Source: a bacterium
GTDB lineage: Bacteria > SAR324 > NAC60-12
Length of the DNA: 64,000 bases
NCBI GenBank assembly: GCA_965233585.1
Contig: CBDDTI010000745.1
Span: 556,667 to 620,666, forward strand
Direction of reading: 5' to 3'
Part shown: in pieces, positions 23,982-24,716 of the stretch
How positions within the stretch are numbered: position 1 is the stretch's first letter
How the letters are laid out: each line of letters opens with the position of its first letter
The notes under the pieces: model-generated
Seen by the model: the letters and a program-made list of their open reading frames with translations, nothing else
The model's database searches: none
What the model was told of the DNA's origin: nothing
Translations under genes and position numbers: made by a program

Positions 23982-24434
23982 TTACTTCAGAAATGCAAAA
24001 ATTCTGCCGAAGCGGATTAATCTGGGGTCAAAGATGTCAACTAGCGCCCAAACTAAATTTTCTTCTATCAAGGTTCCAGGGTCTTTTGACCAGTAAATGA
24101 TTTGTCCTTTGCCTTTGACTTTTGAAACTTCAACATATCCCCAAAAACGACTATCCAAACTATCGTAGCGATTGTCTCCCATCACGAAAATATGCCCCTT
24201 GGGAACGGTGATGGGTCCAAAATTACGAATTGGCAGCCCAAATTGCTCCTGTGCCAGAATTTCAGGGCGTCGTTCAGGATTCAGGTAAGCATAAGGTTCA
24301 TCAAGCAGTTGGTTGTTAATCAAGACACGGTCGTCGCGAATCTCCAACGTCTCACCCTCTAATGCCACAGCACGTTTGATGTAGTCAAGGGAAGGGTTTT
24401 TTGGGAAGGGAAAGATGACAATGTCCCCACGTTT
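23982..24434 (-). CDS. lepB: Signal peptidase I, 3' part only (5' part with catalytic Ser missing at the junction)
   Basis: KRGDIVIF (box C), DYIKRAVALEGET (box D, catalytic Lys), GDNRYDSLDSRFWG (box E). The frame hits TAA at 24443-24441 just upstream. Confidence 0.9.
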   Translation of the reverse strand, partial: KRGDIVIFPFPKNPSLDYIKRAVALEGETLEIRDDRVLINNQLLDEPYAYLNPERRPEILAQEQFGLPIRNFGPITVPKGHIFVMGDNRYDSLDSRFWGYVEVSKVKGKGQIIYWSKDPGTLIEENLVWALVDIFDPRLIRFGRIFAFLK

Positions 24435-24716
24435 GAAATTTTAAAAACACCATTTTTATCGATTTCGTCCCAAGATTGCCACAATCACAATTTGCTTTTC
24501 ATATACTCCACTTCTGTTGAAATTCACACTTACTACAGCTTATCACTACTTACTGGCGTTCTGACACCTTAGAAGGCTATTATTTAAGGTTTCCTACAAA
24601 ATGGAAGTTATTTTGAACGTCAGAACGACGACATAAACTGTGATGACAGAACTCCTTCAGAGTTGCTTTTTTGGCTGCGAATACTCAGAAAGCCCAGCAT
24701 TGATTTGCTGTGTTAT

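What the first reader, a model, noticed from the sequence alone, without database searches (positions are those of the whole stretch)
24400..24480. Seamless bacterium-to-animal junction cutting lepB in half
Seen: ~24 kb of operonic, intronless DNA with RBSs and a CIRCE ends inside signal peptidase I. The frame reads *NF-KRGDIVIF, so the N-terminal TM and catalytic Ser are absent. Within ~300 bp the sequence is the 3' end of a spliced XKR gene, followed by animal repeats. There is no N-gap and no visible TIR or integrase at the join. Inference: either a chimeric contig joining an anthozoan host to an associated bacterium (more likely), or a very recent large bacterial insertion into the host genome, which would be remarkable.
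Basis: partly seen in the sequence, partly recalled or inferred. Interest (0 to 1): 0.9.

Follow-up and report, generated by a model that had tools for sequence, protein, structure and literature searches.

The report
Chimeric bacterium-coral contig, assembly artefact
The seamless switch from bacterial to coral DNA inside the signal peptidase gene is really in the sequence, but public sequencing data show that the bacterial and the coral DNA each carry on differently past this point, so the join is almost certainly an assembly error and not a gene transfer.

Summary
The window is the last 64 kb of a 620,666-bp contig, C745, in a 12-Mb "prokaryote" bin. Bases 1-24436 are intact bacterial DNA from a SAR324-like organism and end inside lepB. 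Only the C-terminal ~150 aa of lepB are present, and the catalytic-Ser box is missing. Bases 24437-64000 are stony-coral DNA, beginning 280 bp beyond the stop codon of a two-exon XK-related gene (94% identical to an Orbicella XKR6-like protein).

- In two runs that hold both sides, a 48,213-nt and a 4,064-nt bacterial contig match the window perfectly up to base 24436. They then run on for 16.5 kb and 1.7 kb of sequence that does not fit the window.
- In those runs the bacterial side has depth 7 and 2.9, against 53-97 and 13-27 for the coral side.
- Two coral metagenomes from other studies hold only the coral side, and a contig there continues leftwards past 24437 into non-bacterial sequence.

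All 20 relatives searched have a full-length lepB. In the closest relative, gene order points to the truncated end of contig C295 (hemC) as the true bacterial neighbour. There is no TIR, duplication or integrase at the join.

Interest is low. The practical lesson is that this bin is largely host DNA.

The parts
1..24436 (.). Bacterial segment: the last 24.4 kb of 581,102 bp of SAR324-like chromosome on contig C745
   Evidence: ORF density and CpG o/e ~0.55. Pfam hits to ClpB, UvrD-like helicase, S41 peptidase, Map and S26. The lepB relatives are named SAR324 by their sources. A public-run contig fits 21438-24436 with 0 mismatches at depth 7.
17771..17797 (+). CIRCE inverted repeat ahead of clpB (17830-20208)
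   Evidence: Exact match to TTAGCACTC-N9-GAGTGCTAA, 0 of 100 shuffles match. clpB by Pfam.
23096..23974 (-). Methionine aminopeptidase (M24) with an N-terminal SEC-C motif, directly downstream of lepB
   Evidence: Pfam PF00557 E 1e-51 and PF02810 E 1e-9. The lepB-map order is kept in 4 of 4 relatives examined.
23982..24436 (-). 3' fragment of lepB (signal peptidase I), about the C-terminal 150 aa, cut by the join
   Evidence: Pfam PF10502 positions 55-168 of 168. tblastn of P0001 residues 162-311. The N-terminal ~161 aa are nowhere in the 12-Mb bin.
24436..24437 (.). The artificial join between bacterial and coral sequence
   Evidence: Bacterial contigs of runs X18 and X20 stop fitting after 24436 and run on unlike the window. 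Contigs of host-only run X2 have loose non-bacterial ends before 24437.
24437..24485 (.). 49 bp just right of the join. Bases 24437-24471 are a piece of a high-copy host repeat; 24472-24485 are not placed
   Evidence: Short contigs fit 24437-24471 with loose ends on both sides in X18 and X20, and with a loose end before 24437 in X2, which lacks the bacterium. The 24438-24637 bin has depth 496, against 65-101 in the six bins of unique host sequence that follow it (24638-25837). The four listed host contigs start fitting only at 24485/24486.
24717..25652 (-). Last exon and stop codon of a coral XK-related (XKR6-like) gene
   Evidence: Pfam PF09815 positions 116-337. tblastn of P0121 residues 326-633 at 90% identity. 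The ORF 24717-25526 is 94% identical to P0121.
25653..27266 (-). XKR intron full of high-copy host repeats and a microsatellite
   Evidence: Summed depth up to 7x10^5 in 26038-26837 and 27038-27237 in all four runs. TTA/TCA repeat at 26284-26400.
27267..28289 (-). First coding exon of the XKR gene
   Evidence: Pfam PF09815 positions 1-87. tblastn of P0121 residues 1-339 at 86% identity.
24437..64000 (.). Coral host tail of the contig (39.6 kb)
   Evidence: CpG o/e 0.8-1.1 and almost no long ORFs. Interspersed repeats at 44968-45603 and 48968-49640 are shared with many small contigs of the bin. MAM-domain exon at 60187-60585. The part laid (24485-27437) is held by runs labelled coral metagenome and coral reef metagenome.

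Best explanation
The join at window 24436|24437 is an assembly artefact, not a biological structure. A bacterial chromosome (SAR324 family, an associate of this coral) and the coral's nuclear DNA were sequenced together. One chimeric long read or one wrong graph edge let the assembler extend a low-depth bacterial contig into high-depth host sequence. The two organisms have the same G+C (~0.40), so the hybrid contig and about 9 Mb of host contigs were binned with the roughly 2.9 Mb of bacterial contigs. In the living bacterium lepB is whole. Its 5' half and about 1 kb of upstream DNA were simply lost from the bin. The chromosome most probably continues into the end of contig C295 (hemA-hemC).

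Shown: each side runs on differently in public runs; the depth step; the absence of the bacterium from host-only runs; full-length lepB in all relatives searched.

Inferred: that the run-on bacterial sequence is the rest of lepB; the link to C295; and whether the cause was a chimeric molecule or a graph error.
For: (a), run X18: record 9 is 48,213 nt at depth 7. It fits window 21438-24436 at record positions 28664-31662 with 0 mismatches, so 16,551 nt lie beyond 24436. None of them fits the window, although the stretch laid ran to 27437. Run X20 (another sample): record 27 is 4,064 nt at depth 2.9. It fits 22058-24436 at record positions 1-2379 with 0 mismatches and has 1,685 nt more.
(b), depth. 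Bacterial bins are 7 (X18) and 2-2.9 (X20). Unique host pieces are 53.5-97.5 (X18) and 12.7-26.9 (X20). The bacterial side is therefore at 0.07-0.23 of host depth, too low for a copy in every host genome.
(c): X1 and X2, coral metagenomes from two other studies, have depth 0 on the 14 bins from 21438 to 24237 and 11-31 on unique host bins. In X2, contigs that fit from 24437 rightwards have loose ends of median 83 nt to the left, and these are not lepB.
(d): the missing 161 N-terminal residues of LepB are nowhere in the 12-Mb bin; 20 of 20 relatives searched have a full-length match, and G000 alone matches only residues 161-310.
(e): in G008, the closest of the four relatives examined by lepB identity, the order is hemA, hemC, a small ORF, lepB, map. 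In G000, hemA and hemC sit at the very end of C295, with hemC cut at about residue 226 of 307 by the contig end, in the orientation that would run into C745:581,102.
(f): the 581 kb of bacterial sequence is intact (ORF coverage ~0.85) and carries very large CRISPR arrays. It shows no decay.
(g): only 1 of the 5 large bacterial contigs has an animal tail.
(h): no TIR or target duplication; no integrase among the neighbours.
Against: The contig is seamless, with no N, so at least one read or graph path carried the join; it is not a scaffolding gap. The public data are k-mer contigs, not raw reads. They drop rare variants, so a low-frequency real junction cannot be excluded. Only 32 of 16,717 laid pieces were listed. 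I did not see the letters of the 16.5-kb run-on, so its identity as lepB and upstream genes is inferred. Runs X18-X21 come from one study and may include the source sample, so they are not independent of the assembly. The C295 link rests on 1 of 4 relatives examined; G003, G005 and G006 have other genes upstream of lepB. The 49 bp right of the join are not explained in full.
Confidence: 0.95

Rival explanations
1. A real, recent, germline or colony-wide insertion of at least 581 kb of bacterial chromosome into the coral genome just downstream of the XKR gene, comparable to Wolbachia-to-insect insertions.
For: Seamless join without N. The bacterium is found with this host in both samples laid from that study.
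Against: The bacterial side has 0.07-0.23 of the host depth in both runs, so it is not in every host genome. Bacterial contigs pass 24436 and continue into other sequence. Contigs of a host-only run carry non-bacterial sequence left of 24437. There is no gene decay over 581 kb and the CRISPR arrays are intact. There are no integration signatures.
Confidence: 0.01
2. A rare in-vivo event: bacterial DNA joined to host DNA in a few somatic cells, for example by end-joining after lysis of an intracellular bacterium. It was captured in one or a few molecules and then promoted by the assembler.
For: Not excluded by contig-level data, which drop rare variants. The 49-bp repeat-derived piece at the join could pass for filler DNA.
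Against: A library ligation chimera gives exactly the same picture and, from general experience with long-read libraries (recalled, not tested), is far more common. No second sample or run shows the junction. There is no microhomology or other signature to examine.
Confidence: 0.03
3. The truncated lepB is a true bacterial pseudogene, or a true end of the replicon, and only the host tail is artificial.
For: The N-terminal half is absent from the whole bin.
Against: Bacterial contigs of two runs continue past 24436 without a break for 16.5 kb and 1.7 kb. The only other S26 match in the bin is a weak one on C746, 18.4 bits (27.8 with its neighbours in the frame), so the essential function would lack an evident substitute. 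All 20 relatives searched keep a full-length gene. The bin is 92.5% complete, so missing pieces are expected.
Confidence: 0.01

Closest known systems
Chimeric contigs and host contamination in metagenome-assembled genomes and symbiont-bearing animal assemblies. The well-known precedent is the tardigrade 'massive HGT' claim later attributed to contamination; that case is recalled from memory, not read here.
   Same: A bacterium-animal junction exists only in the assembly. The two sides differ in depth, and each side continues differently in the reads. The bin holds far more host than bacterial DNA.
   Different: The join is seamless, inside a 620-kb long contig. The equal G+C of host and bacterium (~0.40) hid it from composition-based binning.
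True bacterium-to-animal insertions such as Wolbachia segments in insect and nematode nuclear genomes (recalled knowledge)
   Same: Large blocks of bacterial DNA next to host genes without mobile-element signatures.
   Different: True insertions have host-level depth, are spanned by many reads, are inherited and usually decay. Here depth is 0.07-0.23 of host depth, contigs run on unlike the window on both sides, and the bacterial genes are intact.
Type I signal peptidase LepB (Pfam PF10502, peptidase S26)
   Same: The fragment matches the C-terminal two thirds of the S26 domain and keeps the YIKR box. It is followed by map, as in relatives.
   Different: It lacks the ~161 N-terminal residues, including the GSMLPT box. 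This results from the contig join and is not a feature of the organism.

Membership tests
Assembly chimera (artificial join of two genomes) | Each side of the join continues into different sequence in primary data | tested here: met
   Bacterial contigs of X18 (48,213 nt) and X20 (4,064 nt) fit to 24436 and run on for 16,551 and 1,685 nt that do not fit the window. X2 contigs that fit from 24437 have non-bacterial loose ends to the left.
Assembly chimera (artificial join of two genomes) | Step in sequencing depth at the join | tested here: met
   Depth 7 against 53.5-97.5 (X18) and 2.9 against 12.7-26.9 (X20); contig mean k-mer depths.
Assembly chimera (artificial join of two genomes) | No, or a single, read spanning the join | not testable with these tools
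   Only k-mer contigs of public runs were available. No listed piece or joint bridges 24436|24437, but 16,685 pieces were not listed and contigs drop rare variants.
Assembly chimera (artificial join of two genomes) | One side occurs without the other in independent samples | tested here: met
   X1 and X2 (two other studies) hold the host side at depth 11-31 and have depth 0 on 21438-24237.
Bacterium-to-animal lateral DNA transfer (nuclear insertion) | Inserted DNA present at host-genome depth | tested here: not met
   Bacterial side at 0.07-0.23 of host depth in both runs that hold it.
Bacterium-to-animal lateral DNA transfer (nuclear insertion) | Junction reproducible in independent samples or libraries | tested here: inconclusive
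   No bridging contig among the listed pieces of 4 runs; raw reads were not available.
Bacterium-to-animal lateral DNA transfer (nuclear insertion) | Signs of residence in the host: decay, introns, host-like composition or repeats inside the insert | tested here: not met
   ORF coverage ~0.85 and CpG o/e ~0.55 across the 581 kb. The only low-ORF stretches are CRISPR arrays.
Signal peptidase I (Pfam PF10502, S26) | Match over the family's gathering score | tested here: met
   115.5 bits against a cut-off of 22.9, profile positions 55-168.
Signal peptidase I (Pfam PF10502, S26) | Complete catalytic domain with the Ser box, plus N-terminal membrane anchor | tested here: not met
   The fragment starts at residue ~162 of P0001, whose GSMLPT box is at residue 126. 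This is a result of truncation by the join.
XK-related protein family (Pfam PF09815) | Match over the gathering score across the domain | tested here: met
   Two exons match positions 1-87 (72.7 bits) and 116-337 (172.2 bits). Collinear with the 633-aa P0121.

The most novel reading that the evidence does not exclude
The join records a real but rare molecule: DNA of a coral-associated SAR324-family bacterium ligated in vivo to coral nuclear DNA in a small fraction of cells, a snapshot of the first step of bacterium-to-animal DNA transfer. Contig-level data cannot exclude this, because rare junctions are dropped.
Probability: 0.03. Interest if true: 0.75.

Novelty: not a real feature. Interest (0 to 1): 0.08.

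Why it matters
As biology it does not matter: there is no evidence of bacterium-to-coral gene transfer here.

As data hygiene it does.
- The record is held in a one-genome-per-species prokaryote collection, yet roughly three quarters of its 12 Mb lie outside the five large bacterial contigs, and most of that looks eukaryotic. Its marker-based contamination figure is only 2.09%.
- One of its largest contigs carries a 39.6-kb coral tail.
- Anyone mining this record for bacterial XKR, MAM or Polinton genes, or for host-symbiont transfers, would be misled.
- The contig should be cut at C745:581,102 and the eukaryote-like contigs removed.

One positive by-product: the bacterium is present in both samples laid from the one study, at about a tenth to a fifth of host depth. 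It is therefore a plausible regular associate of that coral.

Tried and rejected
1. I looked for the missing lepB half in the bin with Pfam PF10502 and with tblastn of three full-length relatives. It was not found. The only other S26 signal is a weak match on C746.

2. I looked in the bin for a host allele or haplotig overlapping the join, using megablast and blastn-short. Only a paralogous XKR copy on C74 turned up (86-88% identity, from 24602 rightwards), plus chance 16-17-mers.

3. Exact-pattern scans of metagenome contigs and genome contigs gave 0 hits in all four scans. The patterns were a 32-mer of the host side (24486-17) and a 34-mer of the bacterial side (24403-36). No independent assembly of either uninterrupted allele was obtained. 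The scans may leave out records of the window's own genome.

4. No contig among the 32 listed pieces bridges 24436|24437, and 24472-24485 has no listed cover. With 16,685 pieces unlisted and contigs dropping rare variants, this absence is not used as evidence.

5. The four listed host contigs over the XKR 3' UTR stop fitting at 24485/24486 and have 55-84 further letters that do not fit the window. One possibility is that the host normally carries a different, longer segment between the 35-bp repeat piece and 24486. I could not see those letters, so this stays open.

6. I searched for TIRs, a target duplication or microhomology: nothing above chance.

7. I checked the other four large bacterial contigs for animal tails or internal animal pieces: none. 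The flagged low-ORF stretches at 88-92 kb and 392-404 kb of C745 are CRISPR arrays. The flagged bins of C746 and C729 were not examined.

8. Literature searches were used as listings only; no paper was read. A search of this scan's earlier notes for a chimeric junction gave nothing.

Full report
**What is there.** The window is G000:C745:556,667-620,666, the last 64 kb of a 620,666-bp contig without any N. From base 1 to about 24,440 it is typical bacterial DNA.
- ORFs are tightly packed on both strands.
- Pfam identifies ClpB, a UvrD-like helicase, an S41 peptidase with PDZ, and a methionine aminopeptidase with a SEC-C motif.
- An exact CIRCE element lies at 17771-17797, just ahead of clpB; 0 of 100 shuffles match.

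The last bacterial gene is lepB, on the minus strand.
- The frame 23982-24446 reads F*NFKRGDIVIF....
- It matches Pfam Peptidase_S26 only over profile positions 55-168 of 168.
- Full-length relatives are 283-311 aa. The best, P0001, is 83% identical, and several others are named SAR324 cluster signal peptidase I by their sources.
- tblastn places the start of homology at P0001 residue 162, which is window 24434.
- P0001's GSMLPT box is at residue 126, so it falls in the missing part. The YIKR box is kept. That these are the catalytic Ser and Lys boxes is recalled knowledge of the S26 family.

**The other side.** From 24437 onwards the sequence is animal.
- CpG o/e rises from ~0.55 to ~1.0 and long ORFs vanish.
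- A two-exon XK-related gene lies on the minus strand: exon 1 at 28289-27267, exon 2 at 25652-24720, stop at 24717-24719.
- Its last-exon ORF (24717-25526) is 94% identical to a protein that NCBI names XK-related protein 6-like of Orbicella faveolata. The next named relatives are from Montipora and Actinia. The host is therefore a stony coral.
- The intron holds repeats with summed depths up to 7x10^5 in public runs.
- Further right there are 640-675-bp interspersed elements with many copies, up to 99% identical, on other small contigs of the bin, and a MAM-domain exon.

**The contig and the bin.** C745 is bacterial for 581,102 bp and coral for the last 39,564 bp.
- The bin has 747 contigs and 12.0 Mb. 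Five large contigs (1.07, 0.83, 0.62, 0.26 and 0.14 Mb, 2.92 Mb in all) look bacterial.
- 589 contigs (5.97 Mb) have under 0.3 coverage by ORFs of 150 aa or more. 116 contigs (2.15 Mb) are intermediate. Mean G+C is ~0.39-0.40 in every class.
- Equal G+C explains why host DNA was binned with the bacterium and why the window's G+C profile shows no step.
- Of the five large contigs only C745 has an animal tail.
- Earlier notes of this scan on the same genome also describe animal Polinton elements and a SAR324 bacterium. That agrees with a mixed bin, but those notes are not independent evidence.

**The decisive test.** A 5-kb stretch centred on the join was looked up in public runs.
- Four runs of one study (X18-X21, two samples, "organism E") hold 0.85-0.89 of its words.
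- 17 runs of eight other studies hold 0.06-0.15. Eight of these are labelled coral metagenome or coral reef metagenome; the other nine carry coded organism labels.

I laid X18, X20 (the second sample), X1 and X2 (two other studies) on window 21438-27437. These are k-mer contigs, not raw reads.
- **X18.** A 48,213-nt contig of depth 7 fits 21438-24436 at its positions 28,664-31,662 without a mismatch. Its remaining 16,551 nt fit nothing in the 3 kb of window that follow.
- **X20.** A 4,064-nt contig of depth 2.9 fits 22058-24436 at its positions 1-2,379 without a mismatch and has 1,685 nt more.
- Both stop fitting at the same base, 24436, two bases beyond the end of protein homology. The bacterial chromosome in these samples therefore continues past the join into something that is not the coral sequence.
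- **Host side.** Unique pieces have depths 53.5-97.5 (X18) and 12.7-26.9 (X20). The bacterial DNA is at 0.07-0.23 of host depth, well below what one copy per host haplotype would give.
- **X1 and X2.** These hold the host side (depth 11-31, about 3-6% divergent) and have depth 0 on the 14 bins covering 21438-24237.
- In X2, contigs that fit from 24437 rightwards carry loose ends of median 83 nt on their left that are not lepB. Host sequence therefore also continues through the join.

**Supporting comparisons.**
- The 161 missing LepB residues are nowhere in the bin.
- A full-length lepB is found in 20 of 20 relatives searched; G000 alone matches only residues 161-310.
- I examined the neighbourhood of lepB in four relatives. 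lepB-map is conserved in 4 of 4.
- In G008, whose LepB is the most similar of the four (61% against 52-55%), the upstream genes are hemA, hemC and a small ORF. In G000, hemA and hemC lie at the very end of contig C295, and hemC is cut at about residue 226 of 307 by the contig end. Their orientation would run straight into C745:581,102.
- In the other three relatives the upstream genes differ, and they map to an internal part of C747. The C295 link therefore rests on 1 of 4 relatives and is an inference.
- It implies that about 1.2-1.5 kb of bacterial sequence was lost where the assembler took the wrong turn.

**How the join arose.** No TIR, target duplication or direct repeat brackets it, and no integrase is nearby. 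Two causes are possible:
- a chimeric long read, from ligation of a bacterial and a host fragment during library preparation;
- a false assembly-graph edge.

I cannot tell these apart without raw reads.

One detail is unexplained. The 49 bp right of the join (24437-24485) are not collinear with the listed host contigs.
- Bases 24437-24471 occur in short, very deep contigs with other flanks, in X18 and X20. In X2, contigs fitting from 24437 show a loose end on the left. This marks a high-copy host repeat.
- All four listed contigs over the XKR 3' UTR start fitting only at 24485/24486 and have 55-84 unfitted letters to their left.
- A messy, repeat-derived join fits an artefact. It could also be read as filler DNA in a real end-joining event.

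**Rivals.**
- **Germline or colony-wide insertion.** It is contradicted by the depth ratio, by the run-on of both sides, and by the intact state of the 581 kb of bacterial sequence, which includes very large CRISPR arrays.
- **Rare somatic junction.** Contig data cannot exclude it, but nothing speaks for it over a library chimera.
- **True lepB pseudogene or replicon end.** It is contradicted by the uninterrupted bacterial contigs in two runs and by the lack of an evident second signal peptidase in the bin; the only other S26 match is weak.

**Limits.**
- The runs that hold both sides belong to one study and may include the source sample.
- Only 32 of 16,717 laid pieces were listed.
- I did not see the letters of the run-on sequences.
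- Four exact-pattern scans of other collections for either uninterrupted allele found nothing.
- Papers were seen only as search listings. Comparisons with the tardigrade contamination case and with Wolbachia insertions are from memory.

**Verdict.** This is not a biological feature. Interest is low apart from the warning that this reference bin is largely coral DNA.

Noticed in passing
whole genome G000 (747 contigs): The 'prokaryote' bin is mostly host. Only five contigs (2.92 Mb) are clearly bacterial. 589 contigs (5.97 Mb) have almost no long ORFs and CpG o/e around 0.86. The listed contamination is nevertheless 2.09%.
   Followed up: partly
G000:C745:391,545-404,724 and 86,789-90,717 (outside the window): Very large CRISPR-like arrays: a ~36-nt repeat with period 62-63 over about 13 kb, which would be roughly 200 units (estimated from length and period, not counted). 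A second related array of about 4 kb lies on the same contig. G+C is ~0.30 and there are no ORFs.
   Followed up: partly
G000:C295:253,838-256,417: Contig C295 ends inside hemC (about residue 226 of 307) after hemA. In relative G008 these genes lie just upstream of lepB, so this is probably the true neighbour of the window's bacterial end.
   Followed up: partly
window 26038-26837 and 27038-27237: The XKR intron holds extremely high-copy host repeats, with summed contig depth of 10^4 to 7x10^5 in all four runs, plus a TTA/TCA microsatellite at 26284-26400.
   Followed up: no
window 48968-49640 and 44968-45603: Two short interspersed elements (~675 bp and ~640 bp) with many copies on other small contigs of the bin. 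Some copies of the first are 98.5-99.3% identical, which suggests a young, active non-autonomous element in the coral.
   Followed up: no
G000 contigs C352, C102, C313 (46-59 kb each): These contigs have almost no CpG (o/e 0.02-0.06) at G+C ~0.40. That is unlike both the bacterium (0.55) and the coral (~0.9-1.0). They may be a third organism or an unusual repeat class.
   Followed up: no
G000:C74:4717-5765 against window 24610-25653: A paralogous XKR last exon, 88% identical over 1,055 bp, on another host contig.
   Followed up: no
window 60187-60585 (+): An open frame with a MAM domain (E 7e-17), probably an exon of another coral gene.
   Followed up: no
runs X18 and X20: The SAR324-family bacterium is present in both samples laid from the one study, at 0.07-0.23 of host depth. 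It is absent (depth 0) from two coral metagenomes of other studies whose host sequence is 3-6% divergent. It may be a regular associate of this particular coral.
   Followed up: partly
window 20319-20909 (-): A 196-aa bacterial ORF between clpB and the S41 peptidase with no Pfam family.
   Followed up: no
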